From: Azolla caroliniana
Lineage: Eukaryota > Plantae > Polypodiophyta
DNA: 64,000 nucleotides
NCBI GenBank assembly: GCA_043228905.1
Contig: JBHGNT010000008.1
Span: forward strand, 13,826,001 to 13,890,000
Reading direction: 5' to 3'
Positions 3,870 to 53,985 of the stretch are shown in pieces. The position numbers were made by a program, and so were the translations under genes. Numbering within the stretch: position 1 is the stretch's first letter; each line of letters opens with the position of its first letter. The notes below the pieces were generated by a model, which searched no databases, was not told where the DNA came from, and saw only the letters and a list, made by a program, of their open reading frames with translations.

Positions 3870-4063
3870 CCTAGTTCACATTCTTGATCCTCCCTCGTGC
3901 TCCTCTACACGAGCTCTCTTTCCCATTAAAACATCATATGAATCCCCATCTAACATGACCTTCCCACATGTTGTATTTAATGCATCCTTTACATTATCAT
4001 TCTTCTTAAACTCAATCAAATTAATACCTTGAGAATTTACTTGATTTTGTGACCTTTGGTCTT

Positions 4064-9475: not shown

Positions 9476-11076
9476 CTAGAGGGACCAAAAATCCCAACAA
9501 TCTCCTGCTTCCTCTAGCATGGGATGTTTCGTCAGCCCAATCCGCGTCCGACATGCGTCCAACTTGTCGGGTGTCAGCACTTTGGTCAGCATGTCCGACC
9601 CGTTCTCCTCTGTGTGGATCTTCGTCATCACGAACTCTCGATCTTCAACTCGCTCCCAGATCCAATGGTACCTATGATGGATGTGCTTTGTTCTGGAATG
9701 GTATGTTGCATTCTTTGCAAGGTGGATGACACTTTGACTGTCACAGTAGAGCCGATATTCCTCTCGCCGGATCCCTAGCTCTTTGATGAAGTCCTTCATC
9801 CATAATATTTCCTTGCCGGCTTCCACGGCTACCATGTACTCCGCCTCCGTGGTTGACAACGCAACCGTCTTCTACAGCCTCGACTGCCACGAAACGGCTC
9901 CCCCTACATAGGTCCTGACATATCCAGAAGTTGATCGGCTGGTGTCCACATCAGCTGACATATCCGAATCGGTAAATCCTTCCATGAGAGGTTTACCGGA
10001 GCCAAATCGGAGGCACATACTCAAAGTGCCCTTCAAGTACCGGAGTATCCATTTTACCGCATTCAAGTGCTCTTTTCGGGGTTGGTCATAAACCGACTCA
10101 CCACTCTTCATGCGTATCCAATATCCGGTCAAGTACACACCATTGCGTACATCAAACTTCCGACCGCAGAGGCATATGGAATCTTCATCATATCCGCCTT
10201 CTCTGCCTTTGTCTTCGGGCTTTGCTTACTTGATAATTTGCAATTTGCCGGGAGTGTCGATCCGACCGATTTTGCTTCTGACATGTTAAACTGTTGAAGC
10301 ACCTTTGTCACGTACTTTTCCTGTGACAACCACAATTGCTTGTTCAACTGGTCCCGAATGATGTGCATCCCTAGTATCTGTCTTGCCGGACCCAAGTCCT
10401 TCATTGAGAAGGTTCGGTTAAGGGCCTTCTTCAGCATCCGTATCTTGACTTGGTCTTGTCTGATGATCAACATGTTGTCCACGTACAAGAGCAATATCAG
10501 GAAATCTCCTCCAACAAATTTCTTCACAAACATGCAGTGATCGGCCTGCGTCTTGTGGTACCCTTGTTTGGTCATGAAGGAGTCAAACTTCTGGTACCAT
10601 TGCCGGGTAGCTTGCTGCAGTTCGTATAAGCTCTTCTTCAGCCGGCACACCAGGTGCTCATTCCCTTTCTTCTCAAATCCTTCCGGTTGGTGCATGTAGA
10701 TCTCTTCTTCGAGGTCTCCGTGTAGGAATGCCATCTTGATGTCCAACTGCTCTACCTCGAGGTCCATGCTTGCCGCTATGCCCAATAACATCCGGATGGA
10801 TGTCATCTTTACTACCGGGGCAAAGATCTCATCGAAGTCCACTCCTTTCTTCTGCTGGAAGCCCTTCACCACGATTCGGGCATTATACCTTCGTGGATTT
10901 CCGGCGTCTCCTGGTTTCAGCTTGTACACCCACTTGTTCCGGAGTGCCCTCTTTCCTTTCGGCAACTCCACCAATTCGTATGTGAGGTTCTCATGCAGGG
11001 AGTCCATCTCGTCCTGCATGGCACTCAACCACTTGCGGCTGTGGGTGTCTGTCCTTGCTTCTTCAAAGCTTTCCGG
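9476..11076 (-). pseudogene. Copia RT and RNase H of element D
   Basis: 'ARIVVKGFQQKKGVDFDEIFAPV', 'EQLDIKMAFLHGDL', 'LLYVDNM', 'STTEAEY', 'YCDSQSVIHL'. Confidence 0.95.
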
Positions 11077-12135
11077 TGTCGTGTGAATCTTCTGACACTG
11101 TAAAAAAATAAATAATAAAATAAGTACTTTATATTAGCTTAATGGCATGTTATAAAAAGATGAATGTTTGAGAAGATAGGGAAAATAGAACTATGCTTTA
11201 TCCCACATAGATAGGAAACTTAAGGCTCTAGCTATATAAGCACCTTGAGATCCCTCATTTTTCATTTGTGCTAAGAGCACTTTGGCCACTTTGTCTTGAT
11301 GGATGATGGTGGTTAAGTTCCCAAAAACCGGAACCGGGACGACAAGCAAAACCGGAAACCGGCCGGTAAGCAAAATCGGAACCGGGCCGAAAAGCAAAAT
11401 TGGAACCGGCCGGAAAGCAAAACCGGAACCAGGCCAGTAAGCTAAATCAAAAACCGGCCGGTAAGCAAACTAGAACTGGCGGCAGAGCTGGCGAGGCGAT
11501 GGCAATCGGTGACCGGACGAGGTTGGACGCAAATCGAATGGATAAAAGGATCATGTGGCTAATTAAAGAAAGGTAAAAGAGAGTAAAGTAGAGGCCATGT
11601 GGATGCATGCAACAAAAGTGGAAAAGCATGCAAAGGAAAAAAAGAAGCAAATTGAAGTCCTTCATGGAAAGGGATGGGGGAGAGACAAAAAGAAAAGAAT
11701 CTGAATTCTTGGAGGCTATCGATCACTCATAATTCCAATTTCTCCATACGGGAAAGACGTTATCTCTCAAGTAAACCATAATTTCCTTACGGAAGCCATA
11801 TCTTACTGATAACCCTAAATTTTCCATACGGGAGCAAATTCAACTCATAAAACCATAATCTCTTATCAAAGCCAAGAACCCTAAATCTCTATTGAATCCA
11901 TATCTTAGTTTCTTCTAATCTATTATTCTAGTAATCTCCTTAAGATAAAACTTTGTAATCCCAATCTTGGGATTGATTGTAATTTTTCTTTTCTATTTAT
12001 TAATGAAATTTGTCAATCTTTCTCATTTTCCATTAATTGTTTAACATAAACATACGAATTTGATATCTTCCGGTCGGAGGCCCTGGGGTCTTGCCTCAAA
12101 GTTCACGTATCCTCGTCGTATTTTCGTGACATCTT

Positions 12136-12153
12136 TGGTGAACCCGACGTGAA
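12136..12153 (+). promoter_or_regulatory. Primer binding site, tRNA-Trp
   Basis: TGGTGAACCCGACGTGAA is the complement of the 3' 18 nt of plant cytosolic tRNA-Trp (recalled sequence ...TTCACGTCGGGTTCACCA), 4 nt after the LTR end. Confidence 0.9.
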
Positions 12154-12199
12154 ATAGGCGGCAAGAAGGATCAAATTGAGGATCGAACGATACTTGGAG

Positions 12200-13603
12200 A
12201 TGGCGTCCTCAAGCAATCAAGCAGGAGAGTTCGAAAGGATGATGTTGATCGTCGAACAAATGATGAGATCTCGAGACAACGATGTGAGCGCGGGAAAGGC
12301 CATCGATCGTGTCGTTGAGCTCGAGGGTCAATTTGATGGAAGGAACATTACAAAGTTCCTTGATGCATATAGAAGGGAGATGAATCAAAGGGACGTGTCC
12401 GAAGCAGATCAAATCACAAGTTTCAAGAGAGTGGTCGCCAACAACATCCAAAGACGCATCATCAAGATTCAAGAAGGTAAGACAACATGGTCCGAGTTCG
12501 AGAAAGCGATATTAGCGGAGTTTGCGACTAAAGACTTGACGAGGATGACTCGACATGTCCTCATGAAATGGATAGAGAAGAAAAATAAGAAGATAAGTGT
12601 CTCGAGGGTATACGACGAGTTCGAGCAAATGTTTAGTCGTCTCCCCAACACGGACCAAGTGCTACTTGAGGAGGACAAGACTTTGTACTTCTTGAAAGCC
12701 ATGGACATGAAGGATAGACGAGAATTGGGGACTCTTCTCGAAGATGATACCCAAGCAAATGGACTTGTGGCGGACTGGGTTGCGGTGAAACAAGCATGCA
12801 ACAAGATCGACATGCGTCATCGATGGCTCCATGATATTGACTTGGTAAGACCAAATGTAGAAAAAGCAAAACCATCTAAAGAAGTCGAGACGCCTAAACA
12901 ACGCATCCAACATGAAAAGAAGATTGATGACGACTCGAGGACGATGACAACCATTTCAAAGGAGGTCGAATGTTTTGAAACATGCGTCGTGTTCGAAACA
13001 TCGGATGATGAAGGAGCAAGCCAAATCGAAGCTTGCATCAATGGAGATAAAGAGTACAAGGCTAGTGTAATTGAGGATCTAGCCGCTAAAGATGACATCG
13101 AGGAGGTGACTATGAACAAGATAAATGACCACGACCGGATTTTCTCCACACATGTTCTAGAGACTTGGGCAGATGCGTCGGAAAGCAAACGTGAGACCCA
13201 AGAGACAGAAGGTGGCGGCGAGGAAGTGAAGGTCAAACCTAATACATGCAAAGAAGAAGGAGACGTCAAGCCGAAGAGGGTAGATGACGATGATGAAGAG
13301 ACTCTCCCCACAAAGGTTCTTGAGACTTGGGCATTAACCGATGTAAGACCCAAGAGACAGAAGGTGGCGGTGAGAAAACAAAGATCAACGCCAACACGAA
13401 CAACCATAAGGTGGAAGTGGCAAAGAGTAGCACGACAAAGGCAATGCCAAACTACAAAATTCCTCCACACTCGTTTGAGAGACTTGGGCATTAATCGATG
13501 TAAGACCGAAGTGAAGGACAATGGCGGCGAGGAAGCAAGGGTTAAAGCCAATGTGTGCAACAAGGAAGTAAAGCAAAGCAAAATGACGAAAGTCCATGTG
13601 TGA
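12200..13603 (+). CDS. Gag-like protein with charged, internally repetitive C-terminal half
   Basis: Uninterrupted ORF just after the PBS. The N-terminus 'FDGRNITKFLDAY...TTWSEFEKAILAEF' is gag-like. No pol follows. Confidence 0.75.
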   Translation: MASSSNQAGEFERMMLIVEQMMRSRDNDVSAGKAIDRVVELEGQFDGRNITKFLDAYRREMNQRDVSEADQITSFKRVVANNIQRRIIKIQEGKTTWSEFEKAILAEFATKDLTRMTRHVLMKWIEKKNKKISVSRVYDEFEQMFSRLPNTDQVLLEEDKTLYFLKAMDMKDRRELGTLLEDDTQANGLVADWVAVKQACNKIDMRHRWLHDIDLVRPNVEKAKPSKEVETPKQRIQHEKKIDDDSRTMTTISKEVECFETCVVFETSDDEGASQIEACINGDKEYKASVIEDLAAKDDIEEVTMNKINDHDRIFSTHVLETWADASESKRETQETEGGGEEVKVKPNTCKEEGDVKPKRVDDDDEETLPTKVLETWALTDVRPKRQKVAVRKQRSTPTRTTIRWKWQRVARQRQCQTTKFLHTRLRDLGINRCKTEVKDNGGEEARVKANVCNKEVKQSKMTKVHV

Positions 13604-14630
13604 CAAAGAGGTAAAGCAAAGCATGAAGACAAAAGCAAATGTGTGCGACAAAGAGACCAAGAAAACCTCAAAAAGCAAAGATGTGGGCCAAGTGGACCAA
13701 GCGGATATGAAAGATGTGATCACAAAATCTAACAAGGATAATAGTAGCGTAGAAGTCATGGTCAATTCCAACACAAGAGTATACCAAGAAAGTGGACAAA
13801 GTGGGAAACATGCGGTGTGGTCACTTAAGCACCTAGAGGAGAGCATGGCGCTAAATAATGAATCGCTAAGAGTAGTCAACCATAGTATTTCAATAAGGCT
13901 TTTGAAAGACATGCATGGAACAAGAAAGAATGATAAGAGAAAATTAGATGACCAAGGAGATGGCCGAGATGAAGGTGGCACATGCATAAGGAGTGAAGCA
14001 TTATGCTCAAGAGGAGCAAAGAGAGCCATGACAACCGGTCATGGAAATGCAAAGAGTGAACGTAGAATATGGTGGATCGGATGGCAATGGTGATTCCGGT
14101 ACATCAATAAAAAAGTAAAGTAATCAAAAGTGGAGCCTCACCAAAATTGGCACATACCGGTGGATGTGCAGGTTTGGTGGGGGTGAATGAATCTTCTGAC
14201 ACTATGTAAAAAAATAAATAATAAAATAACTACTTTATATTAGCTTAATGGCATGTTATAGAAAGATGGATGTTTGAGAAGATAGGGAAAATAGAACTAT
14301 GATTTATCTCACATAGATAGGAAACTTAAGGCTCTGGCTATATAAGCACCTTGAGAACCCTTATTTTTCATTTGTACTAAGAACACTTTGGCCACTTTTT
14401 CTTGATGGATGATGGTGGCCAAGTTCCCAAAAATCGGAAACAAGGCTGGTAAGCAAACTGGAATCGGGTGGAAAGCAAACCGGAACCGGCCGGTAAGGAA
14501 ATCGGAACTGGACGGTAAGCAAATCGGAACCGGCCAGTAAGCAAACAAGGACCGGCCGGTAAGCAAATCGGAACCGGCGAAATTGGCAATTGGATGGTGT
14601 TGGGGACCGGGCGGATCCGACAACCGGCGA

Positions 14631-14949
14631 TGAGAACAAGAAAGACTTTGATAAACGACATCGACTTCGCCCGAGGAAAATCGTTGAAGGAGATTGGGTG
14701 CTAGTCTATGACAGTAGCCTAGACAACCAACATAGTACGGCTCGAAAATTTTCACAACGATGGTTTGGACCATATGTGGTGAAGAAAGTGGAAGAAAATG
14801 GAACATATCATTTAGTAGAATTGGATGGTACACCACTTGCCTTGCCAAGTGCCGGTAAAAGAGTCAAGATCTTCAAGAGAAGAGATAGAATAGAAATTGG
14901 ATTTGAAGCTTTTGATGATTCTGTCTTGGGCATCGATGAAAAAGTATAG
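14631..14949 (+). pseudogene. Gypsy integrase C-terminal (GPY/F) tail of the autonomous E-family partner
   Basis: 'GDWVLVYDS...KFSQRWFGPYVVKKVEENGTYHL..LDG'. No chromodomain. Confidence 0.88.
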
Positions 14950-15016
14950 TAAATAAAGGTGGAGCCTCACCGAAATTGGCACATACCGGTGGATGTGCAG
15001 GTTTGGTGGGGGCGAA

Positions 15017-16076
15017 TGTCGTGTGAATCTTCACACACTATATTAAAAAATAATGAAACAATTATTTTAGATTAGATTAGTAGCTTGTTATAGAAATATG
15101 GATGTACTCAAGAGCTTCAAAACACATTTTACTACATACAAAATAGATAACTACATATCAAGTTAGGTGGAGATGAAGCTTGAGAAGATAGGGAAAATAG
15201 AAATTTGAAGTATTCCACATAGATAGGAAACTTAAGATAGGAAACTTAAGATAGGAAACTTAAGGCCCTGGCTATATAAGCATTTTGAGACCCCTCATTT
15301 TCATTTGTGCTAAGCGCACTTTGGCCACTTTGTCTTGATGGATGATGGTGGCTAAGTTCCGAAAAACCGGAAACCGGCCGGTAAGCAAAACCAGAAATCA
15401 GCCGCGAAGCCGGTGAGGCGGCGACAATCGGCGACCAGACGGAACCGGCAACCGGACAAGGCTGGATGCAAACGAACGGATGATAGGATCATGTGGCTAA
15501 TTAAAGTGAAGTGAAGAAAAATAAAGTAAAGGTCATGTGGACGGTCACATGCAACTAAAATAAAAAGCCATGCAACTAAAAATAGATGCAACTAAAAGAA
15601 AAAGCTATGTAACTAAAAGTAGAGGCCATGCAACAAAAAGTGGACATGCAGATGATCAAGGGAGAACTCCATATAAAATTCCATTTTTTTCCCTACACTC
15701 ATGCTCTCTCCATATTATCTTAATTTTTTCTTCTCCTTCTAAGCTCCCTTATCTTATCGAAGCCAAGAACCCTAAATTTCCGGACAGAAGTCATAAACCC
15801 TAATTTTCCCTACGGAAGCCATATAATTTTCCTATCGAATCCGTATCTTAGTTTCTTCTAATCTGTTATTCTAGTAATCTCCATAAGCTAAAACTTTTTG
15901 TAATCCCAATCTTGGGATTGATTGTAATTTTTCTTTTCTATTTATTAATGAAATTTGTCAATCTTTCTCATTTTCCATTAATTGTTTAATATAAGCATAC
16001 GAATTTGATATCTTCCGGTCGGAGGCCCCGGGGTCTTGCCTCAAAGTTCACGTATCCTCGTCGTAATATTGTGACA
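15017..16076 (+). repeat. Full E-family LTR flanked by PPT (left) and Trp PBS (right)
   Basis: TGTCGTGTGAATC...TTGTGACA, with GGTGGGGGCGAA before and TCTT-TGGTGAACCCGACGTGAA after. Confidence 0.93.
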
Positions 16077-16426
16077 TCTTTGGTGAACCCGACGTGAAAC
16101 GAGGCAGTAGGAGGATATCTTACTGATAACCCTAAATTTTCCATACAGAAGCTATTCAACTCATAAAACCATAATCTCTTATCAAAGCCAAGAACCCTAA
16201 ATCTCTATTGAATCCATATCTTAGTTTCTTCTAATCTATTATTCTAGTAATCTCCTTAAGATAAAACTTTGTAATCCCAATCTTGGGATTGATTATAATT
16301 TTTCTTTTCTATTATTAATGAAATTTGTCAATCTTTCTCATTTTCCATTAATTGTTTAATATAAACATATGAATTTGATATTTTCCGGTCGGAGGCCCCG
16401 GTGTCTTGCCTCAAAGTTCACGTATC

Positions 16427-18920
16427 ATCGGTTAGCAACACATACTCTACATTCGGAAATCTTCGGGGGGCTCTTCCCTCCCGGAGAGGATATCTCCATC
16501 CTTGATATATAATTGCTGGTTCCTCCATCTGTTCTTCATCCGAATCCAATTCGGGATCTTGTCCGGTTCTGGTGTCTTCTTCTTCTGGTTCTTCTTCTGC
16601 TTCTTCTTTGGTCGGTTCGGTTTCTTGCCCGTATCCGGCCGGTTCGTCGAGTGTCATCCAGTTACCGACTAACAAACGGTTTTCAAAAGGGTATATCCTT
16701 TTATCCTCAAGCCGGTTTTCAATGGATGATCCGGAGTTCGTTACCTTCTTCTCCGACTCCTAGTCGGCAATGGTCCTGTCTTTCATGAAGACTATGTCCC
16801 AACTCTAGAACACCTTTATGTCGACCATATCCCACACCCAGTAACCAAACTCATCATCGTCGTATCCATGGAATATGCATGGTCGGGACTTCGGATCTAG
16901 CTTTGCTCTCTTGTCCTTCGCCACATGCACGTATGCGAGACACCCGAACACCTTCAGATGCCGGTAAAACACATCCTTACCGGTCGATACTTTTTGTGGT
17001 GAGTCTCTGTCCAAGGGTACTGAGGGTGATCTGTTTATCACATAGGTCGCCATCGTCAACGTGTTAGCCCAAAACGGCTTGGGTAACTTTGCATGTGCCA
17101 ACATGCTCCAGACTCTCTCCATTCTGGTTCGGTTCATCCTTTCGGCCTGCCCGTTTAGTTTTGGCGTCTTCGAGACAATAAACTCAAGCCGGATTCCCTT
17201 TGACCTGTAGTACTCCTTGAACTGCCCCTAGTATTCTCCTCCGTTATCTACTCGAACTGCTTTCAGCTTCCGGCCGGTTTCTCTTTCTACTCTCGCGTGG
17301 ATCTCCTTGAAGACGGATAACACTTGGTCCTTCGTCTTCAACGGTGAGACCCACAGGTTCCGGCTGTGGTCGTCTATGAACGTCACGAAGTACTGCGATC
17401 CAGAATGTGACTTCGTGTTGACTTGACACACATCGGCATGTACTAGCTCTAGTGGTGCATTCCGTCTCATCGGTGGTCTTGACTGGAAGGAGGTGCGGTT
17501 TTGCTTGCCGGCCAGGCAGTCCGTGCGCTTCTCAAGTTGCACGTCCTTCACCGGAATGAGATTGTCTTCGACAAGCCTCTTCATCTCCTTCTCACTCATG
17601 TGACACAGTCTTTTGTACCACAACTCACCGGCAGTGTCGGATGCTACGTTCACTTCTTCCTAGCATATACGGGCATTCATCAAGTACAATGTGTTGACCT
17701 TCCAGGCTCGAGCCACTATTAAGCTCCCTTTGTAGAACTTCATGACACCGTTCTAGATGCTACCTGTGTAGCCTTCATCATCTAGCCGACCGGCTGATAT
17801 CAAGTTCAGTCGAACCTCTGGAACGTGTTAGACATCCTTCAGCACCAACTAGCATCTGATGTCGTCAACAACACATCTCCTATGCCGATAATTCGGCATG
17901 TCCCTTCATTCCCCATCCGGACACAGATGTGCTCACCGGCTGTGTAGGATGAGAAGCATTTCCGGTCCGGGGTAAGGTGGAACGACGCTCCGGAGTGGAC
18001 AACCCACATTGTCTTGTTGACGACAAGGTTCAACTCGCTCTCCTCGGTGATGAGCATTAGTTCTTCTTCACTTGCCGCGATCGCCATCATTCCCTTCTAG
18101 TCCGGGCCTTGCCGATCCGAACCGTTTTGGTCCGGTGACTTCTTCGAATCGGTACTGTCGGTTCCCTTGTCCTTTCGGAAATGCCGACAGTTCTTTTGGA
18201 AGTGCCCCGACTTGCCGCAATAGAAGCAAGTGGGCCTCCCCCTTGACTTTGACCGTGTCCCCGACTTTTGCCGGTTCTAGGGACTCCGATTCCTTTGTCT
18301 TCCGCGTTCCGATTCGGTAAGGAGGGCTTTGGCGTCGGAGATCATCTCCTTGTCTTTCCGATGCGCCTCCTCATCTAGCAAGATCGACTTGACCCTTGCT
18401 AGGGATAGTTGTTTTCCTTCCGACCTGAATTGCCCAACGTGATAACTAACATCTCCCAACTACCTGGGAGGGAACCGAGCAGGAGTAGAGCAAGTAACTC
18501 ATCGGCGAGAGGTACTTCCAATGAGGTTGCTTTGTGTATCAGCCCCTAGAAGGCATTCATGCGCTCAGCCATACTGGAGCCGGTTTGGTACCAGAGCCTC
18601 ACTAGCTTCCGAAATACCGAATCCCGATTAACGACATTCTTGTTTTGGAACATGATGCCGATCTTCTGCCAGAGTTCATGAGCCTTGCTCTCTTCATTGA
18701 AGTTGTTGTATAGGCTCATGTCGATGAAGCACCGGATGTATGCCATCTTCTTCATGTGCATCACCTCCCACACTGTGGCGTCGATCTTATCTGGTCTCTT
18801 GTCCCCGAACTGAACTGGCAACCAAAGATCTTTAACCACCAACATGTCCCTCATCTTCGACTTCCACATTGAGTAGTTGGAGTTGGTGAGATTGAACATG
18901 TTGTCTTAAGATTCTTCCAT
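16427..18920 (-). pseudogene. Copia gag, protease and integrase of element D
   Basis: 'NYSMWKSKMRDML', 'WVVHSGASFH', 'LWYKRLCHM', 'FIDDHSR', 'DNGGEY', 'LKVFGCLAY'. Many stops. Confidence 0.95.
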
Positions 18921-19576
18921 TTTCTGTGTTGCTTGCTCTAATACTAGTTTGTAGAGTAATGCGTGGAATATCACTTGGCCACAACTGAGTAGTAAGAAAA
19001 ACACTTCTATAGGAAATAAACACAGAAATGGGAAGTGGAGAGTGCATAAGAAAAATGACACAGGATGTTTACGTGGAAAACCCTAATAGGGAAAAAACCA
19101 CGGGAGCCCATAGACTCCGAACTATCACTATGAAGTGAAGGGGTACAATCAGAGACTTGGAAGCAATGACCTCGAGCTCTATTTCTTCGCACAATGGTAG
19201 TTACAACAGAGTATCGTTCTGTATCTCTCTCTCTAACTCCCTCTCACTTTGTCGCTCTCTCTATACAACGGTTACAACAACAATAATAACTATACTAAAG
19301 TGATTGCCGTAAGTCATATTTATACTTATATGAACTTAGGGCTATTTACAAATATAGCCTCAATGGGCTTACTTAGAAACATATTTACAGATATGTCTTC
19401 TACATCCAGTTCTCACCGGGTCTTCTATCCGGTTCTCAAGATCCCATCCGGAGGGACCGAAAATCCCAACACATAAGGTCATGGGTTCGAGTCTTGCCAT
19501 ATCATGACACTATCCCCCCTTTAAAACGATGAGTGTCACGAGTCGTTTTGGATTGAGGACCCAGTTTATCTGGATA

Positions 19577-22419: not shown

Positions 22420-23783
22420 TGTTGTGTGATTCTTTACACACTATGTAAAAAAAAGAAAATAACAATAATAATGAGATATTTATTTTATAGTAGCTTAATG
22501 GCTTGTTATAGAAAGATGAACACCTTCAAGATTTTCCGAATGTATTTTACTACATGTAAAATGGATAACTACATATTAAGTTATGTAACTATGAAGCTTA
22601 AGAGGATGAGGGAATACTAGAATTTTAAGATATCCCACATTGATAGGAAACTTTAGCATCCAACTATATAACTAAATTGAAAACCATTAGTTTTTATCTA
22701 TTTGTTAAGAGCACAAAAGGAATAGTTGAACTTGGGCCACTTTGTCTAGATGGATGGATGTGGCTATGTTGCCAGAACCGGGACCAGACGGCGATGGGAA
22801 CCAGCAATTGGCAACTGGCGATGGTGACGGAACCGGTTACGGAACCAAAACTGGCAACTGGACGGCGATGGAAACTGGAATCAGATGGTAATCGAACCAG
22901 AACCGAATAGTGATCGAACCGGAATCGGACGGTGATCGAACCAGAACCGGACGACGACGGAACCGGTGACCGGAACCGGAACCTGATGGCGATTGAACCG
23001 GAACCGGACGACGACAGAACCGGCGACGGGACTGACGATAGAACCGGAACCAGACTGGACGATTGAGGCCGAACGCAGACTAGACAGATCGGATAGGTGA
23101 CGGTAGAGATGATGCATCAAAGCATGGGCGAAACTTTACGGATTATAGGATCGTGCGGCTGAACTAAAGTAAAGTAAAGTTAAGTAAAGTAAACGTCATG
23201 TGGACGCATGCAACTAAAGGTGAAGGCCATGCATAATGTGAGAGGTCATGAAGAAAAAGAAGTCAAGCTTTATGTAAAGGAAAGGTCATGTGGATGCATG
23301 CAATTGAACTCAAGATTAAAACTAGAGTTCCTCATGCAAGTGTATCTTTGAGTGGGGGAAAAAAGAACTCTAAGCCTAATTACCTTATCAAATCCATCTC
23401 TCATCAAAGCTGAAATCCTAATTATCTTATTGAATCCATCTCTCATCGAAGTGGAAAATCCTAATTATCTTATCGAATTCATCTCTCATCGAAGCCAAAA
23501 ACCCTAATTTTCTAATCAAAGCCAAAAAACCCTAATTTTCTTATCGAAGCCATATCTCCGTTAATCTACTAATCTATTACTCTATTAATCTTTGTGAGCT
23601 AAAACTTTTGGAATCCCAATTTCAGGATAGATTGTAACTTTCTTTTTCTTTGCTAATGAAAATTATCAAACTTTGTCATTTTGATTAATTCTTAAAACGT
23701 AAATGTACGACTCTGGTATCCTCTGGTCGGAGGCCCTAGGGTCCTGCCTCGAGTTCACGTATCTTCGTCGTATTTTTGTGACA
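22420..23783 (+). mobile_element. Solo LTR, E family
   Basis: Termini TGTTGTGTGATTC...TTTTTGTGACA match E LTRs. The host C frame resumes on both sides ('VFDKVQANT' / 'LPHHQPYDCPI'). Right flank is ACGT; the left TSD is damaged. Confidence 0.9.
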
Positions 23784-24186
23784 ACGTATTGGCTTGTACT
23801 TTATCGAACACATAGGCATAATGATGATACTTCTTTGGAAGTTGAACGATCGACTCCTCTTTAGTGGTGTCGAAGGGTTTTACTGATATTGCGAAGAGAA
23901 ATATTTCTTCCTTGCGTCCTTCTTCTCGCAACTGATGTAGCGAAATGGTTGCAATCTTATGAGTAGATCCTCAGGCTTGACGATATTGGATTTCTCTTGT
24001 TCTCCAATCTATGTTTGGGTTATGTAATTTGAACCATGCTAATCCTAAAACAATGGGATGTTTTGGGATACTAATTATATTAAATGATACTACACATGCT
24101 AGATTATCTAGGACAATATTAACGGGCTCTGACTCTTCTATGATATTTCCGGAAGTAATGGGACGACCATCAATGACTACTACAGA

Positions 24187-33745: not shown

Positions 33746-33852
33746 CCTACATCTTTGTCTGTTAATTATATTGAGTATTGTTATGTATAATCTTGTGTAT
33801 AGTCTTCGTCTGTCAATAACCAGTTTGCATGTGGTTTAGTAATTAGCTACAT

Positions 33853-34719
33853 TGTCGAGGAAATCCTTGCGTGTTCGCGAAATGAAGCGGGACCACCAAG
33901 GTCTTGGACGGGAAGGATTCAATGTTTCTTGTAGCGTCAGCGAGAAAGTATTGATGATAGATTGAGAGGGTATTTAAGAGAGATATAGAGACAAAGATTC
34001 CAATTCTGAGACAGATTGAGAGAGAGAGAGATTGAACCCTTGATTTCAATTTTAAGGGAGAAGATACCTCACGAATAAGATAACTAGTTTTCTTTTTATT
34101 AATTTCTTGATCAGTACATCTTTTTTTTTTATACTCTTTTTCCTCCTATCTTTTATAGATGCCCCCATGCATATAATGCATGCCAGGGTGCAAGACATGC
34201 ATACAATGCATGTAATGCATGCAATGCATGTTTGCCATTTGGTGCTCATGCATTACATGTGATGCATGATGTCCATGTCACTCATCGAAGCTCTCATGTA
34301 TGAGAATTTACATGTGAGGAATAGAATGGAAAATACAACTTCTAAAGAAATGACTTGGCTTAGTGGTAAGTCAATTGTGTTATGTAAGATTGTCCCTCCT
34401 TGTGGGAAGGAGCTGGCCGAAGAGCCGAAACAAGAGTTGGCTGGCCGAAATCGGTCAGGAAGCTGAAACAAGAGTCGATTGGCCGAAATCAACCAAAAAG
34501 CCAAAATGGGGTTCGGTCGAATAGAAGTTCAAACAAATATAGACATATATATATGTGTGTGAGATAAGTTAGTATATATATAGAGGGAGTCGTATTAACT
34601 GCATATATATGTGGGATAACTCATTGAGAAAAAACAGTGACAGAAGCGGGTAAGTCAACCCTTCTCGGTTTTCTCCTTTCCACGTGATTTTCACACCGTT
34701 GCCGAAAATCTTCACGACA
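33853..34719 (-). mobile_element. Solo LTR distantly related to the E family
   Basis: TGTCG...CGACA termini. The - strand 3' end (TTCCCGTCCAAGACCTTGGTGGTCCCGCTTCA...CGACA) aligns with the E LTR end (TTCCGGTCGGAGGCCCTGGGGTCTTGCCTCA...TGACA). 4-bp TSD ACAT/ACGT. Confidence 0.8.
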
Positions 34720-34754
34720 ACGTGTCTATTTTTTGTTTGATTTTGCTAATGAAT

Positions 34755-40109: not shown

Positions 40110-41345
40110 CAGCTAATTAGCGGCTTCTCTTTAGCTACTACTTTTTGTAGTTAGGTGTAGTTACTTGTGTTTTTCTACCACCTTAGTTGATAACTAAACA
40201 TTGGCAGTAACTAGACTATAGATACTATTGATACTGCTTAGCTAATTACCTACAATTTAGCTAATTCCCTACCTACTATACTTTAGATTGGCAGGATCTA
40301 ATTAGCTACATCTTAGCTACCACTCTTCATACTACTTAACTAATTAGCTACAATGACATTGTAGCTAATTAGCTGGTACACTATAGATTGGCAGTACCTA
40401 ATAAGCTACTCTACTTCAGTATGGCAGTAGCTAGTTAGCTACCACTCTTGATAGTACTTAGATAATTAGCTCCATTGTAGCTAATTAGTTGCTACACTAT
40501 AGATTGGCAATAGCTAATTAGCCACTCTACTTAAATTTGGCAGTAGCTAATTAGCTACCACTCTTGATATTGCTTAGCTAATTAGCTACTCTACTGAAGT
40601 ATGGCAGTAGCTAATTCTCTACCACGCTTGATACTGCTTAGCTAATTATTAGCTATTATACTATTGATTGGCAGTAACTAATTAGCTACATCTTAGCTAA
40701 TTAGCTACTCTACTTAAGTATGGCAAGAGCTAATTAGCTACCACTCTTGATACTGCTTAGCTAATTAGCTACTACACTATAGATTGGTAGTAGCTAATTA
40801 CCTACATCTTACCTAATTAGCTACTCTACTTAAGTACAATAGGAGCTAATTAGCTACCACTCTTGATACTATTTAGTTATTTAGTTATATTGTAGCTAAT
40901 TAGCTGCTACACTATAGATTGGTAGTAGCTAATTAACTACAACTTAACTAATTAGTTACTCTACTTAAGTATGGCAGGAGCTAATTAGCTTTTACTCTTG
41001 ATATTGCTTAGCTAATTAGCTACAACTACCACGCTTGATACTGCTTAGCTAATCAGCTGCATCTTAGCTAATTAGCTACTCTACTTAAGTATGGCAGTAG
41101 TTATAGCTACCACTCTTGATATTGCTTTGTTAATTACGTACGTTGTAGCTAATTAGCTAAGCAATATCAAGACCACAATAGCTAATTAGCTACCACATTC
41201 TATACTGTTTAGCTAATTAGCGTTTACACTTTATACTGTTTAGCTAATTAGCTACAATAACTACACTACTGAACCATAATAGCTAATTAGCTACCACACT
41301 TTATACGGCTTAGCTAATTAGCTAAGATGTAGCTAATTAGTTACT
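40110..41345. repeat. Second TAGCTAATTAGCTA array within the accessory-gene intron
   Basis: Same core motif, with recurrent spacers such as CCACTCTTGATACTGCT and CTCTACTTAAGTATGGCAG. Confidence 0.95.
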
Positions 41346-44300: not shown

Positions 44301-47115
44301 CGAATGCTTGTTGGGTTGTTGGAGTCCCGCAAAAAGGGGAATCCTTCCAAGTGAGTGCTATAAGTGGTTATGCTAGTGTAGAGAATCCTTGGATGAATCG
44401 ACGATAGAAGTTGGCAAAACCCAAAAATGATTGTACATCCTTGACCTTGGTGGGGACTTACCACTCTTGAACCATTGCGACTTTCTTCTTTTCCATAGTG
44501 AAGCCATCAGATGAAATGATGTGCCTGAGGAATTCAACTGAGGTTCGATCAAATTCACTTGAAGTTTGGACAAGATAAGTCAGACGTGCTTGGTGTGCTC
44601 TATGTAGTCCTGTCATAATATAAGTATGTCGTCGAGATAGATGACCACAAATTGGTCTAGATATTCTCGGAAGATATCATTCATCATATGTTGAAAAACA
44701 ATAGGAGCGTTTGTGAGACCAAATGGCAATACCATGTATTCAAAATGCCCGTACCTGGTTCGAAATGCCGTTTTCCACTCATCTCTAGGTTTCATATGTA
44801 CCAAGTTGTAGGCGCCTCTGAGATCGATTTTGGAGAATATACGCCCAACCCAAAGTTGGTCGAGGAGTTTGGGGATTAGAGGTAGTGGATGGTGGTTTCG
44901 AATAGTGACTCAATTGAGCCCGCGATATTCAATACATAAGCATAGAGTTCCATCTTTCTTTTTGACAAATAGAGTCTGTGATCCAGCTGGAGATTTTGAG
45001 TGGTGAATGAATCCCTTTGAGATTCTCTTGAATGTATATTTTGAGGGCCTTGAGTTCAGTTTCAGATAACCCATAGATAGGGCCAAAAGGAGGACAAGCA
45101 CCATCTTGCAAGTCAATTGGACAATGGTATGGGCGATATTCAGGCAGGTGATCAACGTTTTTCTTCTCAAATACATAAGAGAAATCATTGTATTTTGATG
45201 GAAAAGAGCTACTACATAGGGTAATGTCTGGAGTGGACATGACGGCCATGTCCTTAGAATTAGACATGGATACAATTTACACCGTATCACTTACCCGAAC
45301 AAGAGTGGAATCTGTTTTCGAGGCCGATGTGGTTGGAACTATCGAGGTTGTTTCTATTGGAGCAATCGTTGACATGGTTCTTGTTGAAGAGGAAATGGGA
45401 GCGACTGCTAACGTGGTCCTCACCGGAGCAGAAATGGGGGTTGCCCTCAAAACATGAGTGCGAGCAACTGTTGACACGGTCCTCATTGGAGCGGAGACTA
45501 GAATCAGAGCAACCATTGATGTGATCCTCACTGGAGCAGAAATGGGAGTTGTCCCAAAACATGAGTGGGAGCAACCGTTGACATGGTCCTCACCAGAGTA
45601 GGCGGCCAAACAAATGGCGGAGCATTGGCTCGAAGAAGAGTGGAAGTAATCCCTTGTGGGCGAGAATTCGAGGTGAAGTTGATGGAGCGAGATCGCCAAT
45701 CGACTATTGGATTGTGAGTCTCGAGCCATGATAACCCCAAGATGATAGGATGTCGAGGTGATGTGATGAGGTTAAAAATGATTTCTTCCTGGTGGGCTCC
45801 TATGTGGAGACTCAAGGGAATTGTTGTATGTGTGATTGCACCAAAAGAGAGCGTTCAACCATCAATCACTTCAACTGGAATCGGGACAATTATTTTGTTG
45901 CTTAGAATGTTGTGTGTCTGTGCAAACATGATGTCAATAAAGCACGACATAGCCCCAGAATCCAACAAAGCTTTTGTCTTTAGAGTGCTAGAGCCAAACT
46001 AAAGAGTGACCGGAAGTGTGAAGCTTGTTGTCAAGGAAGTCGGTTGATTGGGCCCTTGACACAATTGTCGACTTTTGTGGTCCAGATGCACAACCCCTAC
46101 TGCAACTGGAAATTGGAGTTTTCCTGTTGGCAAAAAATGTTAACCACATCCACACGATGTGGTGTTCGATGGGATCCCCTTTTTGGGAAAGAACGGATCA
46201 AATGGGCAGGGCCACCACAATAGACATATAAATTGTTGGCCCGTCGATGTTGTTGTTGCACGTTAGTCAATGGTCGATAGCGAATTCAATCGATCTCCAT
46301 TGGGCAACTACAATCCATGGCGGAGTTTACGATGAAGATGAAGTGGTTGGCCAAGGTGGATGGATCCGGTGAGGACATACCTCTTGCCGGAACTCAAAGA
46401 GACGATTATCGCAGCGCACAGCTTGGGAAATAACCTCATTCAAAGATGTGGTCTCAGGAAAGTTAAGCAAAAGATTTTTTATCTCACCTCATAATCCTCA
46501 ATGGAACTGATTGAGGAGGGCTTGCCCGTACCACTCCACATAAAACGCGAGCTGATGAAAGTCAAATGCATAGATTGATGCCGCACGTTCTCCTTGTTGT
46601 AACACATATAGTTTGTTGAGTGCAGATCGCCGTTTGTCGGTCTCCCCGAAAGTTGCCTAAAATTCGGTCAGAAATGCGTGGAAGTCATTCAAGAGAGACG
46701 AAGAAGTCTCCCCTAGAGAAGCAAACCAGGCTTACGCTTGTCTTGTCAACAACGTGCCAATCCCAACTTGTCGAAAGTCCTCAAAATATCGCCAAGGTTA
46801 AAGACGAATAATAAGGCGGATTTGGTTGATGAAGCCTCTTAATCGTGACCTTGTTCCATCGAATTTTTCTAGCAAGCTGACATTAGGTTCTACAACAGAA
46901 GGGTCAATAATCAGGTGAGGTATAACCGTTGTCGCTGCATGAAGTTCTTGAACAGAGTTTTGTAACTGTGCATTCTCGTGTCAGAGTTGTAGCACCGCTG
47001 TCGTGTGAATCTTCACACACTATGTAAAAAAATAATAATAAATAATGAAATAAGTATTTTATATTAGCTTAATGCCTTGTTATAGAAAGATGGATGTACT
47101 CAAGAGCTTCAAATT

Positions 47116-50100
47116 TGTAAAAAGTAACGTGCGGAAGCAAGTATGAAGACCGAACAGAAGGAAGAAAACTCAGGTTAATGGAGAGCTTGAGCTCACGCAG
47201 TATACGCGGGAGAGACAGAGAGAGTGAGAGAGGAAAACACAAGAGGTATATTCAAAAAATACTCAATCTCTACTCACCACACTCTATACATATCTGTGTT
47301 CAATGAACACTTTTATACAAGTCCTAGAAGGACTGACCGAAGTATTGACAGTACTTCAATGCTCATTAAGAGCTCCTACACTAACTCCCAAATATATTCC
47401 TCACGGAATATCTTTCCTAGCGGCCTCCCGATTTACGCACCGATCCGGCCCTACCTACGCCCCGGTCTGCGTACCGGTTTACGCATTCGGCCTAACCGAT
47501 CGGTCCCAACCGATCCGGCCGATGTTGAGCTTGTCTCTCAACACTCCCCCTCAAGCTCAACTTGAGGCTCTTCGAGATCTTTGGGCTCACAGCTCCGGTT
47601 CCTCCTGGCTTCACACCTCGCTCGCGCTCCACGAACTGTTCGACTCCGCGCGCTTCGACCCTTCCGGTCGGCTTGTCTGCTCATGTGGCCCTTATCAACT
47701 CTTCTACTGTTGCGGTGTTGATGCTTCTCCTGCTGCCTTTTCTTCCGCTTGGGCCTCGGTTGATTCAGCGTATCTGAATCAAACATCCGAACCGACTCGG
47801 CTACCTCCGATCGGTTTTCGCTCTCGTCCGAGTTGGCTGTCTCCAACTTGTCTTCGGTCTTCTCGCCCTCGATGGCATCATCTTCCCCATGCGTGGTTGG
47901 CTTCGGCTCTCTCCTTCGGCTGCTCCCCTTCTGTCCGCTTCCGGACTTTTCCGCGGGTCCGCCCTCGGCTTCTTCAGCCAATCCGAAATCGAACTCGACA
48001 ACCAAGTCAACCGACTCGGTGTCGCGGTCTCCACTCCTTTCCTGCTGCCTTGCTTGGTCGTCCGGGACTGTTCTCCCCCTCAAGTTTGGCACGTCGAGGT
48101 GACGCAATCCGAGCGCACCTGAGAATTGCCGCAACTTGTCCAGACCAAGAGGCTTGGTGAAGATGTCGGCAGTCTGCCGATCAGTCGGAACGTACTGAAG
48201 TTTGACTTCACCGGAAAGGACACGCTCATGGACGAAATGGTAGTGCACCTCAATATGCTTGGTCCGTGCATGGAAAACGGGGTTTTTCGCGAGCTGGATG
48301 CTGCTGAGGTTGTCACAGTAGATTGTGGTCGGATCTGACACCTCCTCTTGCAGGTCCCTAAGCAGTCGTTTCAACCATATGGCTTCGCATGTCGCAACAG
48401 CCGCTCCTCGGTACTCAGCTTCGGTGCTCGACAGTGCAACTGTCGGCTGCTTCTTACTGCTCCATGCGATCGCGGCACTCCCGAGGGAGAACGCGTATCT
48501 GGACATGGATCGGCGATCGGCGGCGTTGCCAGCCTAATCAACATCGGTGTAGCCGACTAACTGCGCGGCTGCACCGGCCCGATATAGCAGTCCCCGGTCC
48601 TTAGTGCCGTTGACATACCGAAGTATGCGTTGCGCACATTGGAGGTGCTCCTCGGTAGGTCGCGCCATCAACTGACTGATGACTCCGACCGGATAACTGA
48701 GGTCGGGTTGGGTGATGGTCAAGTATATGAGGCTTCCGACAATTTGTCGGAACCTCGTCGGGTCACATACCTTTCCCGTATCAGGACGAAGCTTGACGGT
48801 TCTGTCCAGAGGAGTCGAGACGGACTTACAATTGGCCATCCCGAATTTTAAGAGCATACTCAGCACGTAATGACGTTGGCTGATCAGTATGCCTTCGGGG
48901 GTAAGGATCACGTCGATCCCGAGGAAGTAATGAAGGTCCCCTAGATCTTTCATGTTGAACGATGCCGCAAGCTGGATCTTCACGCGGTCGATTTCACCTA
49001 GGTCGGTGCCGGTGATGACCAAGTCATCAACATATAGTAAAATACTAACCAGTCCAAGTCGACCTTTTCGGATGAACAGGGAAGAGTCCGATTTTGACGT
49101 GACGAAGCCCATCCGACGCAGTTGTTGCATGATCTTCGCTTCCAGGCATGCGGGGCTTGCTTCAGTCCGTAAAGGGACTTCTTCAGTCGGGATATTGCCA
49201 AGGAGTTCGTTCCAGAGTGAAATCCGGGGGGCTGTACTATGTGCACTTGTTCCTCAAGGTCACCTTGCAGGAACGCATTCTTTACATCCATCTGATGTAA
49301 GTGCCACCCCTTCACCGCAGCTACTGTGAGCAAAACACGGACGGTCGTCATTTTCGCGACTGGCGCAAACGTCTCATCATAGTCGATGCTGTGTTTCTGC
49401 GTGTAGCCCTTTGCCACTAGCCGAGCCTTGTACTGGTTGACTGAGCCATCGGTCTTGTACTTGACCTTGTACACCCACCTACACCCGATCGGTTTTACCC
49501 CTGTTGGTGCATCAACCAGGTCCCAGGTCTCGTTCTCCGCCAATGCGTGCATCTCTTCCTCCATTGCGGCACACCAATTCGCGTCTTTAGTCGCTTTTGC
49601 CTAGCTCTCCGGCTCACGCACTTCCGCTACACGGGTCATGTACGCATAATGATGTGCCATGTACTTGTTGTATCCAAACCGCAAAACAAGATTCTTCTGG
49701 CGGGTAGATCGGCGTAATCTCACATTAGCCGATGTCGAGGCCTTCTCAGTTGACGCGGACTTCACCTTTAAAGACCCGTCACCGGTTCCCTCGGAGTCGG
49801 ACTCGCGTCGGTCTGACTCGTTCCTATCCGTGCCGGAATCTGACACCTTCTTCTTCCCGTTCTCTTTGCACGTAAGCCGTCTCCTCGACTTCCTGTGCGG
49901 GGAATGCACGACCGAGTCTCCACTACTCGCCGGCTCTTCATTGGACTGATCGTGCCGACTCTGTCGTCCAATCGGTCCACTTAAACGGAGTGAAATCGGA
50001 CTCTCTTCGCAGGTCTCGATTTCGGGCTCATCCGGAGGCATCTCGGCCTCGATGACCTCATCGTCAGAACTCAGATTGGAGTCGGGGGCTGGTACCAGGA

Positions 50101-52785
50101 CGCAGACTCGTCAAACACAACGTCACGGCTAACACGTGCTTGTTTGGTGCGAGGGTTATAGCACTTATAACCCTTCTGCTCGTCTGAGTAACCGACCAAG
50201 ATGCATTTCTCGGCCTTTGCGTCCAGCTTCCTCCTTTTCTCCTTCGGTACATGCACATACGCAATGCTACCGAACACCCTCAAGTGTCGCAAGTTCGGCT
50301 TCGTTCCGAAATATAGCTCGTGCGCCAACACTTTGTCTTCGATCTGGTTCTGGATGTATACTGCGGTCCTTACCGCCTCGGCCCAATAGAACTTGGGTAA
50401 GCTCTTCTCCTCCAGCATTGCTCGTGCCGCTTCCACAACTGACTGATTCTTCCTCTCGGCCACGCCGTTCTGCTCCGGCGTGTATCTACAACTGAATTCG
50501 CGCCGAATTCCCATTTGTTGTAGGTAACCGTTGAATTGACCAGAAAAGTACTCTTTCCCGCCATCCGACCGTAGGCACTTGATCTTTCGTCCCGTTTTCG
50601 TTTCCACGAACCCTTTGAGGTCCCGGAAACAGTCGAAGACTTCACTCTTCCTTTCAATGAGGTAGATCCACGTGTGCCGCGTGTGGTCGTCAATGAAGGA
50701 GACGAAATATCGGCTCTCGCCAAGACTAACGTTTTGTGACGGCCCCCATACATCGGAGTGTATAAGCTCGAGCTTGTTCCGGCACCGGTTTTGCTTGTTG
50801 CGGAAAGAAAGTCGGTGTTGCTTCCCGAGCTGGCAGGATTCACAAATTTGTGCCTTTCGGCCACTAAATTCGGGCAATCCGAACACTACCTGTTTCGATT
50901 GCAGGTCTTGAAGCCGCTGGTAGTTGACGTGGCCTATCCGCTTGTGCCACAAGTCGATGTCCGACTCGGATTTTTGTCCCTTCGCGAACTTTGCGGTGCC
51001 GCCGTCAGTGGAATCGAGGATGAACATCCTCCCGTCTCTGCGCCCTTGCGCAATCACACGGCCTTCTTCCTCAATGAAGCACCCGAGGTGTGTAAACCGA
51101 ACCTCCATCCCTTGGTCGACGATCTGTCCGACTGAGACCAAGTTCTTCGTGATTGTCGGAACGTGTAGTACGTTCATGAGTTTCCCTTTCTGCCCGACAT
51201 GCCTAAGGGGAACTTCTCCGACATTCGCAATCGGATGCGGAGTGTCGTCTCCAGTTGCGACTACTCCGGGTTGTATCGGTTTTTCAAGGTACGAGAACCA
51301 CTCCTTATGGCTCGTCATGTGGTTTGACGCGCTGGAGTCTACGTACCACACCTCGTCCGATCTCGGGGTGGTCCGTTTCATTGAGTTTGCTTTGTGTCTC
51401 ATCACGAAGGTAGACCCTTCTCCGGCTCTCCCGGAGTCTTCGGTGTAGTGCGATTGCTGCCAATTTCCCTTGTCAGTATGTCCGGAGCCATTTCCGGGAC
51501 CGGTTCTCTCCGAATCGGTGCGCTTCTTCCAGCACTCACTTTCCTTGTGGCCTTTCTTGCCACAGTACCAGCACTCCGCGATGGCCTTCCCTTGCCGGTT
51601 CTCATCGCTTTGACTCCCCCTGTTTCCGGAGGGTTCGGAGTTGCTGTCGGCATCACTTCGGTGCCTTCTTTCATTGTGCGCCTACTCGCATCATCCTCCA
51701 CGTCCATGGGGCCTATCTCCCTTCGTGTACAGCATTTTGTTGTCGGTGTGCGTGCTTGTAGACGCACCCGCGTGGTTCTCCTCTACCAGGAGCATTGATT
51801 GTAAGTCGAAAAAGGACAACGTATTCTCCCGGGTACACACAGCCGTTCGGAACGCTCCGAACTTCGACGCCAAACCTCCAAGACAGATCTGGACCATCTC
51901 GCTCTCCTCGATGTTCACCTCTATGGAGGCGAGGGAGTCGCAGATATCCTTGATCTTCGAGGTATAGTCCGCCACCGACAAGTCGCGTTGTCTTCAGATT
52001 TTCCCATGCACCCTTCGGCGTCTTTGCATCTTGAACATAGCTCAATAGCTGTTCACCCACACACGACGCGAAGCAGTATAATACCCTGCTCGCCGATTGC
52101 TCCCACGACGGGAAGTCTCTGTGTGTCGATTCGGGTGCCGCATCATTAGCTCCTTCGACATAACTCCAGTAGTCGTGCCCGAGCAGGTACTGGTGTATCT
52201 TGTAGGACCAAGACGCGTAGTTGGTTCTGTCGAGCTTCTCTGTTAGAAGCGAGCTCGCCATGCCTCTATCCATCGTTCTTCTTGTTCTTCTTCGTCAAGC
52301 TGTGTCAGCTGCAGAGAGGTTCTCAACCCTCGCGCTCTGATACCATGTAAAAAGTAACGTGCGGAAGCAAGTATGAAGACCGAACAGAAGGAAGAAAACT
52401 CAGGTTTAATGGAGAGCTTGAGCTCACACAGTATACGCGGGAGAGATAGAGAGAGTGAGAGAGGAAAACACAAGAGGTATATTCAAAAAATACTCAATCT
52501 CTACTCACCACACTCTATACATATCTGTGTTCAATGAACACTTTTATACAAGTCCTAGAAGGACTGACCGAAGTACTGACAGTACTTCAATGCTCATTAA
52601 GAGCTCCTACACTAACTCCCAAATATATTCCTCACGGAATATCTTTCCTAACGGCCTCCCGGTTTACGCACCGATTCGGCCCTAGGTACGCACCAGTCTG
52701 CGTACCGGTTTACGCATTCGGCCTAACCGATCCGGTCCTCAGCTTCTTCAGCCGATCCGGCCGATGTTGAGCTTGTCTCTCAACA
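47116..52785 (-). mobile_element. Element H: Ty1/Copia related to F, full-length, comparatively young
   Basis: LTRs 47116..47543 and 52346..52785 are highly similar. PBS TGGTATCAGAGCGC 52345-52332; PPT 47544-47553; TSD AAATT/AAAAT. Confidence 0.97.
47538..52273 (-). pseudogene. gag-PR-INT-RT-RH polyprotein of element H (few stops and frameshifts)
   Basis: 'EKLDRTNYASW', 'WYVDSSASNHM', 'LWHKRIGH', 'SDGGKEY', 'QMDVKNAFL', 'LYVDD', 'SSTEAEY'. Confidence 0.96.
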
Positions 52786-53985
52786 AAAATGCATTTTACT
52801 ACATACAAAATGGACAACTACATATCATGTTATGTGAACATGAAGTTTGAGAAGATAGGGAAAATAGAATTATGATTTATCCCACATAGATAGGAAATTT
52901 AAGGTCATGGCTATATAACCACATTGAGATCCCTTATTTTTCATTTGTGCTAAGAGCACTTTGGCCAATTTGTTTAGATGGATGAACGTGGCCAAGTTCC
53001 CAAAAATAGACTGGCAATAAAATGGAACCGACCAGAAAGCAAACCGGAACTGGCCGATAAGCAAATTGGAACCGGTCGGTAAGCAAACTGGAAAGCAAAC
53101 TGGAACAGGTTGGTAAGCAAACCGAAATTGGCTGGTAAGCAAACTGGAACTGGCTGGTAAGTCGGAAACCAAATTGTAACCAGTTGGTAAGCAAAGCGGA
53201 AAGCAAACCGGAACTGGCAATCGGATGTAGTCAGAAACCGGGCGGATTCGGCAACCGGCGACCGAGCGAAGTCGGCAATCGGGTGGAATCGGAGATCGGA
53301 CAGATTGGATGGGCGGCGATCGAGATGGACAGATGATTGGATCATGCGGCAAATTAAAGTAAAGTAAAGAAAACTAAAGTAAAGGCCATGTGGACAATTG
53401 CATGCAACTAAAAGAAAAAGCCATGCAACTAAAAGTAGAGGCCATGCAACTAAAAGTGGGCATGCAAAGTAACATTGACGGCTATGATCAATGGAGAACT
53501 CTATATATATTCCATTTTTTTTCCTACACTGATTCTCTCTCCAATTTTATTTTCTTCTCCTTCTTAGCTCCCTTATCTTATTGAAGCCATAACACTCAAA
53601 AACCCTAAATTTCCCTACAGAAGCCATAACACTCAAAAATCCTAATTTTCCCTACGGAAGCCATAACACTCAAAAACCCTACTTTCCCTACGGAAACCAT
53701 ATCTCTCAAAACCCCTAATTTTTCTTTTCTATTAACTTAGTAAACCTAAACTTCTTAATCCCAATCTTGGGACATATTGTAATTTCTTTTCCTTTGTTAA
53801 TGAAAATTATTAAATTTCTTATTTCCGTTAATTGTTAAAAATATAAAAGCACGAATGTGATATACTCTAGTGGAAGGCCTCGGGGTCCTACCTCAAGTTC
53901 ACATATCCTCGTCGTATTTTCGCGACACCGCCAAAATTTGCTCAAGATTACTAGATGATTCTGATATGATAGTGTATTGAGAAGG

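What the first reader, a model, noticed from the sequence alone, without database searches (positions are those of the whole stretch)
11073..53931. Trp-primed Gypsy-type family inserts into 4-bp CpG-centred targets
Seen: the four insertions with readable flanks give CCGG (11073-11076, left side only), ACGT (23784-23787, right side; left damaged), ACAT/ACGT (33849-33852 and 34720-34723) and CCGC/CCGC (46995-46998 and 53928-53931). The last is confirmed as 4 bp by restoration of the host reading frame. All are nCGn in an AT-rich background, while other families here show 5-bp TSDs (CTATA, GATAC, AAAAT, GTCAA, CGTAA). Established: 5-bp TSDs with weak sequence preference are the plant norm. Inference: the integrase may target CpG, perhaps methyl-CpG, steering insertions into existing TEs without a chromodomain. 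The sample is only four sites.
Basis: partly seen in the sequence, partly recalled or inferred. Interest (0 to 1): 0.78.

Follow-up and report, generated by a model that had tools for sequence, protein, structure and literature searches.

The report
Phygy-type retrotransposon with CG-centred insertion sites
These retrotransposon copies do insert at 4-base sites with CG in the middle, but this is the signature already published for the moss 'Phygy' lineage, to which they likely belong, and whether the CG must be methylated is untested.

Summary
All four sites are at the stated coordinates. Only one has a perfect pair (CCGC/CCGC), one has a mismatched pair, and two show one side only. Site 3 (33853-34719) is a different LTR family. 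Outside data agree: 4 of 6 metagenome junctions are nCGn and the other 2 are TG/CA, as CpG decay would give. In 4 of 4 public runs the consensus right after the LTR end starts ACGT or CCGG (73 contigs). Neumann et al. 2019 (PMC6317226) list the non-chromovirus lineage Phygy with '4 bp (100%) (NCGN)' and tRNA-Trp priming (81% of 186 elements). The family's Pol has no chromodomain and no extra RNase H. That fits Phygy and excludes TatI, the other 4-bp, Trp-primed lineage. No labelled Phygy sequence was available for a tree. The most likely mechanism is that the integrase reads sequence or shape at a bendable CG step. Methyl-CpG reading is neither supported nor excluded.

The parts
11073..11076 (+). 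Site 1 target, left copy CCGG, inside a Copia RT (host on - strand); right copy lost with the LTR end
11077..12131 (+). 5' LTR (1055 bp, TG...CA) of a gag-only, likely non-autonomous copy
12136..12153 (+). Primer-binding site, 4 nt after the LTR; matched to tRNA-Trp from recall only
   Evidence: same PBS in L015
12158..13603 (+). ORF of 481 aa: Gag N-terminal part (12200-12934, 81% identical to intact Gag-protease P0002) followed by an unrelated low-complexity tail; no pol follows
14188..14630 (+). First part of the 3' LTR (lacks its first 7 bases), preceded by a PPT-like tract at 14167-14187
14632..14946 (+). Integrase C-terminal 105 aa, 93% identical to P0011 residues 1019-1123; ends with a stop and no chromodomain
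14996..16098 (+). PPT (14996-15016), full LTR (15017-16076) and second PBS (16081-16098): an internal LTR of tandem or recombinant type
16108..16430 (+). 3' part of an LTR (96% to 11798-12115), cut off about 16 bases short of its end; the Copia host resumes after it
22420..23783 (+). Solo LTR of the same family (1364 bp) in a Tcn1-type pol; left junction damaged
23784..23787 (+). Site 2 target, right copy ACGT
33849..34723 (-). Site 3: solo LTR of another family (33853-34719, 867 bp) with ACAT / ACGT on either side; likely a sister family
46995..53931 (+). Site 4: solo LTR (46999-53927) with perfect CCGC/CCGC in a chromovirus-type gag, itself interrupted by a Copia element at 47116-52785

Best explanation
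These are LTRs and a defective copy of a Gypsy retrotransposon family that inserts at 4-base sites with a central CG, likely belongs to the known Phygy lineage, and likely chooses those sites through its integrase reading DNA sequence and bendability rather than methylation. Shown here: the CG-centred junctions, the 4-bp duplication at two sites, and a Pol with RT, RNase H and integrase but no chromodomain or extra RNase H. Inferred: a 4-bp staggered cut needs a sharp bend at the central step. CG is a flexible pyrimidine-purine step, and base contacts from the integrase would narrow the choice from any such step to CG. The gag-only copy would be moved in trans by the autonomous family.
For: Window sites. 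Six genomic junctions in five metagenome loci plus L015's 5' LTR: ACGT, CCGA, ACGG, ACGG, TTGT, CCAG, so 4 of 6 are nCGn (P about 2e-4 at a generous 6% background) and 2 of 6 are TG/CA. Loose-end consensus at the LTR end 12131: ACGT (X1, 26 contigs), CCGG (X2, 12), CCGG (X5, 18), CCGG (X8, 17), with 30-letter agreement only 0.38-0.45, i.e. mixed flanks. Published Phygy profile: 4 bp NCGN, tRNA-Trp, no extra domain. Pol P0011, P0144 and P0012 show no RVT_3/RNase_H (aRH) or chromo hit at E<=0.1, while the window's Tat-type element scores RVT_3 at 2.3e-11 as a positive control. RT is 25-27% identical to the window's Tat and Tcn1 RTs and 65-76% to Riccia, Calypogeia and Adiantum proteins. Retroviral 4-bp integrases select central YR steps largely independently of chromatin (PMC4422553 abstract). 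The Drosophila gypsy, ZAM and Idefix groups target TATA, CGCG or ATAT (PMC5408687 passage); that flies have almost no CpG methylation is recalled.
Against: No labelled Phygy sequence was reached (searches list none named Physcomitrium among the rows shown), so membership rests on features, not on a tree. The Trp match of the PBS is recalled: and 64/66 could not confirm it. TSD length is read at only 2 sites. The read-set consensus hides single sites, omits flanks starting with T, and the runs share insertions (3 studies, related organisms). Nothing here measures methylation at the time of insertion. The choice of CG over TA, TG and CA is not explained by bendability alone.
Confidence: 0.72

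Rival explanations
1. The integrase reads 5-methyl-CpG, which would send copies into methylated transposon DNA without a chromodomain.
For: Three of the four window targets lie in identified transposon genes. Three of 10 sites show TG/CA in place of CG, so targets get methylated at some time. Phygy nested in Tcn1 was the commonest repeated nested pair in P. patens (PMC6911290 passage). Phygy is among the families enriched at Apopellia centromeres (PMC12885004 passage).
Against: ACAT/ACGT differ between the two copies of one duplication, so that decay came after insertion. The window is transposon-rich throughout, which gives no control. CG-centred targeting by Gypsy integrases occurs in Drosophila, where CpG methylation is essentially absent (recalled). 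No methyl-binding or chromo domain in Pol.
Confidence: 0.17
2. The family belongs to another 4-bp lineage (TatI, Selgy, or an unnamed sister clade close to fungal Ylt1-like elements), and the NCGN match to Phygy is shared or convergent.
For: TatI is also 4 bp and tRNA-Trp (75% of 4 elements), and Selgy is 4 bp. The Gag-protease carries DUF4100. No tree with references was possible.
Against: TatI has aRH between protease and RT in 100% of elements; none was found in P0002 or P0011. Selgy is tRNA-Ala-primed and about 5 kb. The paper names Phygy as the only lineage with a TSD motif.
Confidence: 0.08
3. Four sites share a central CG by chance or through base composition.
For: Small sample; the window is not CpG-poor (observed/expected 0.76); one of the four sites belongs to another family.
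Against: Product of local CG frequencies is 6e-7; replicated in 6 metagenome junctions and 4 runs; published for 186 elements.
Confidence: 0.01

Closest known systems
Phygy lineage (REXdb non-chromovirus Ty3/gypsy; Neumann et al. 2019, PMC6317226)
   Same: 4-bp TSD with NCGN motif, Trp-type PBS, no chromodomain, no aRH (against 11, 33, 49).
   Different: Defined from Physcomitrella patens alone. Here the window copy is gag-only or solo LTR, and related proteins occur in Riccia, Calypogeia and Adiantum. Not placed by tree.
TatI lineage (Selaginella)
   Same: 4-bp TSD and tRNA-Trp.
   Different: Carries aRH between protease and RT, absent here; no TSD motif reported.
Drosophila errantivirus groups (gypsy, ZAM, Idefix)
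   Same: Gypsy-type integrases with palindromic 4-letter targets TATA, CGCG or ATAT (PMC5408687 passage).
   Different: Animal elements of another clade; the whole 4-mer is fixed, whereas here only the central CG is.
Prototype foamy virus intasome
   Same: Among the best solved matches to the family's integrase (E 9.3e-20, after Ty3 Gag-Pol); sharp bend at a central YR step (PMC4422553).
   Different: Only a weak base preference. The position aligned to its Ala188 is Glu or Asp in 110 of 111 relatives here.

Membership tests
Phygy | Clusters with P. patens Phygy in RT-RH-INT phylogeny | not testable with these tools
   No labelled Phygy sequence among the rows shown. The tree (25 rows) only separates the family from the window's Tat and Tcn1 RTs (97/96, long branches).
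Phygy | 4-bp TSD | tested here: met
   2 of 2 sites with both sides readable (CCGC/CCGC; ACAT/ACGT, the latter another family).
Phygy | NCGN target motif | tested here: met
   4 of 4 window sites on at least one side, 4 of 6 metagenome junctions (2 TG/CA), 4 of 4 run consensuses.
Phygy | tRNA-Trp primer-binding site | tested here: inconclusive
   An 18-nt TGG-starting PBS is conserved at 12136, 16081 and in L015. The match to plant tRNA-Trp is recalled. No tRNA in the window, 0 papers, 0 tRNAs in 120 prokaryote loci.
Phygy | No chromodomain | tested here: met
   No chromo hit in L017 Pol, P0011, P0144, P0012, P0025 or P0110; the integrase ends about 55 aa after the GPY motif.
Phygy | No extra (archaeal) RNase H | tested here: met
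   None in P0002, P0011, P0144, P0012 or P0110. P0025 has a weak RVT_3 hit (E 0.063) overlapping its ordinary RNase H. The positive control at window 1223-1873 scores 2.3e-11.
Phygy | Length 7.7-10 kb with polyprotein filling the interior | not tested
   No intact copy was in hand. Two LTRs of 1.06-1.36 kb plus Gag-protease 732 aa and Pol 1123 aa would sum to about 8 kb, which is an estimate only.
TatI | aRH between protease and RT | tested here: not met
Selgy | tRNA-Ala PBS, about 5 kb | tested here: inconclusive
   PBS identity is recalled as Trp; the estimated size of about 8 kb does not fit.
Tcn1 chromovirus | Chromodomain, 5-bp TSD, self-priming | tested here: not met
   RT is only 27% identical to the window's Tcn1-type RT.

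The most novel reading that the evidence does not exclude
Phygy-lineage integrases are direct readers of methylated CpG: a chromodomain-free route into heterochromatin, kept across mosses, liverworts and ferns, and tied to lineage-specific residues (an acidic residue where retroviral integrases have a small neutral one, and a conserved QHS..RKF loop in the C-terminal domain).
Probability: 0.15. Interest if true: 0.72.

Novelty: new member of a known kind. Interest (0 to 1): 0.17.

Why it matters
As found, it adds one more genome to a published rule: Phygy's NCGN preference is not confined to the species it was described in, if this window is another species. It is modest but not empty. PMC6317226 calls Phygy the only plant LTR lineage with a target motif, and my searches listed no paper on its mechanism; of the 10 papers listed only that one holds 'NCGN'. 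If the integrase proved to need methylated CG, it would be a new heterochromatin-targeting route and a possible methylation-sensing integration tool.

Tried and rejected
No whole genome is held, so no genome-wide TSD logo could be made. Viral contigs: 13 hits of the 16-mer LTR start had no further similarity to the window, and the Gag, Pol and PBS scans gave no relative. The first read-laying over 10900-12300 did not show the LTR-end rows. The ESM Atlas gave only generic RT/RNase H clusters. Earlier findings of the scan: none, by words or by sequence. Checking the PBS against tRNA-Trp failed: 0 papers, and 0 tRNAs in 120 prokaryotic loci, which was the wrong collection for a plant tRNA. PMC7466625 (P. 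patens RLG families) never uses the name Phygy, so I could not map RLG2 or RLG3 to it (passages). PMC2864245 describes fungal Ylt1-like elements but gave no link to this family in the passages read. PMC6839031 was not relevant. Rejected: counting TG/CA decay as evidence for methyl-CpG targeting, since it can occur after insertion; counting site 3 as the same family.

Full report
Observation. Site 1 has CCGG before the LTR at 11077; the far end of that insert stops at 16430, about 16 bases short of the LTR end, so the right copy is gone. Site 2 has ACGT after the LTR end at 23783 and GAAG before its start, so only one side can be read. Site 3 has ACAT and ACGT. Site 4 has CCGC twice, and taking out the insert with four bases returns the host gag to one frame; one or seven bases would too. 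CG occurs at 1.3-4.4% of positions in the host flanks, and the product over the four sites is 6e-7. Two corrections. The window is 43.0% GC with CpG at 0.76 of expectation, so it is not strongly AT-rich. The site-3 LTR has no blastn match to the other four LTRs, which match each other at about 68-96% in pieces; it is another family, likely a sister. Three of the five 5-bp duplications quoted for other families were checked and hold, two with one mismatch.

Anatomy. The insert at 11077 has an LTR, a PBS four bases later, and an ORF whose first part is 81% identical to an intact Gag-protease (P0002) before running into unrelated sequence; no pol follows. Its 3' LTR is split by a block made of an integrase tail, a PPT, a whole LTR and a second PBS (14632-16098). 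Sites 2 and 4 are solo LTRs in chromovirus-type hosts, and site 4 holds a nested Copia. The host is likely a non-seed plant, probably a moss: the named relatives of the Pol come from liverworts and a fern, and Tcn1-type hosts are limited to mosses and club-mosses (PMC6317226 section 9). That is inference.

Independent sites. No genome was held. A scan of metagenome contigs for the LTR start gave 6 loci. They hold six genomic junctions: ACGT (L014), CCGA (L016), ACGG (L018), TTGT (L019), CCAG (L017) and ACGG (L015); three further junctions were PPT or PBS and were left out. Four of 6 are nCGn (P about 2e-4 at 6% background), and the other 2 are what CpG deamination would leave. None shows both sides, so they do not test length. 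Laying four public runs on the LTR end gave loose-end consensuses at 12131 that start ACGT, CCGG, CCGG and CCGG, from 26, 12, 18 and 17 contigs, with agreement over 30 letters of only 0.38-0.45. Limits: single sites are not shown, flanks that begin with T fall in other rows, and the runs come from 3 studies of related organisms.

Identity. L017 carries the family's pol (its tail matches window 14633-15410 at 86%), and P0011 is a full 1123-aa Pol 93% identical to it. Pfam finds RT, RNase H, H2C2 and rve, but no chromodomain and no extra RNase H; the window's own Tat-type element scores for that domain at 2.3e-11. In a 25-row RT tree the 23 family rows, including Riccia, Calypogeia and Adiantum proteins, stand apart from the window's Tat and Tcn1 RTs (97/96; both outgroups are long branches).

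What is known. Neumann et al. [quoted passage not shown] The table gives Phygy: 186 elements, '4 bp (100%) (NCGN)', tRNA-Trp 81%, no extra domain. It gives TatI: 4 bp, Trp 75%, aRH 100%, and Selgy: 4 bp, Ala 90%. TatI's aRH lies between protease and RT and is absent here. The per-element table and REXdb sequences were not among the supplements held as text ('Phygy' occurs in 2 of 5 small files), so I could not place the family by tree or compare PBS letters; the Trp assignment is recalled, and searches did not confirm it. Jedlicka et al. (PMC6911290, passages) report GC-centred 4-bp TSDs and Phygy nested in Tcn1 in P. patens, as at sites 2 and 4. Phygy is also annotated in the liverwort Apopellia (PMC12885004, passages).

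Mechanism. Shown: central CG, 4-bp duplication at two sites, no chromodomain. From the literature: integrases that cut 4 bases apart favour a flexible pyrimidine-purine step at the centre, largely regardless of chromatin (PMC4422553, abstract and passages), and Drosophila Gypsy groups use TATA, CGCG or ATAT (PMC5408687, passages). Inferred: this integrase bends the target at CG and adds base contacts that exclude the other flexible steps. A lead: the position that HMMER aligns with foamy-virus Ala188 is Glu or Asp in 110 of the 111 relatives covering it (119 of 120 proteins aligned), where retroviruses have small neutral residues. That residue contacts bases outside the duplication in foamy virus, so it need not be what reads the CG. 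Methyl-CpG reading is untested. TG/CA decay at 3 of 10 sites shows methylation at some time, but at site 3 it followed insertion. Transposon hosts are the default in this window.

Verdict. A real feature, already described for the lineage it most likely belongs to (membership about 0.9 on features). Interest 0.17. The open question is whether the CG must be methylated, which I put at about 0.15; searches listed no test of it.

Noticed in passing
window 14632-16098: Integrase tail, PPT, whole LTR and PBS in a row inside another LTR: looks like the shared internal LTR of a tandem element or a recombination product (tandems sharing an LTR are described in PMC11899658, passages).
   Followed up: partly
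window 12158-14093; L015 2339-4240: A recurring gag-only derivative with a long charged tail and no pol. P0001, P0003, P0004 and P0009 look like the same type, and L015 has a different Gag N-terminus fused to the same tail.
   Followed up: partly
P0011 residues 878-882 and 1051-1058: Integrase motif D-R-G-E-L with an acidic residue at the foamy-virus Ala188 position (110 of 111), and a conserved QHS..RKF loop before the GPY motif.
   Followed up: partly
window 12120 (loose ends): All four runs hold a sister family with a different LTR but the same last bases and PBS region; its LTR end resembles the end of the site-3 LTR by eye.
   Followed up: no
window 1223-4000 (- strand): Tat-type Gypsy element with an extra RNase H after the ordinary one, the arrangement PMC6317226 gives for angiosperm Ogre/Retand, here in a likely non-seed plant.
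   Followed up: partly
window 35765-36468 and 40202-41355: Two degenerate tandem arrays rich in TAGCTA in opposite orientation, around transposase-like ORFs at 34960 and 37460; possibly the subterminal repeats of a DNA transposon.
   Followed up: no
L017 4020-7007: A long proline/glutamate-rich, coiled-coil-like ORF pair next to the LTR; its start resembles an ORF in L014, so likely another repeat's extra ORF.
   Followed up: no
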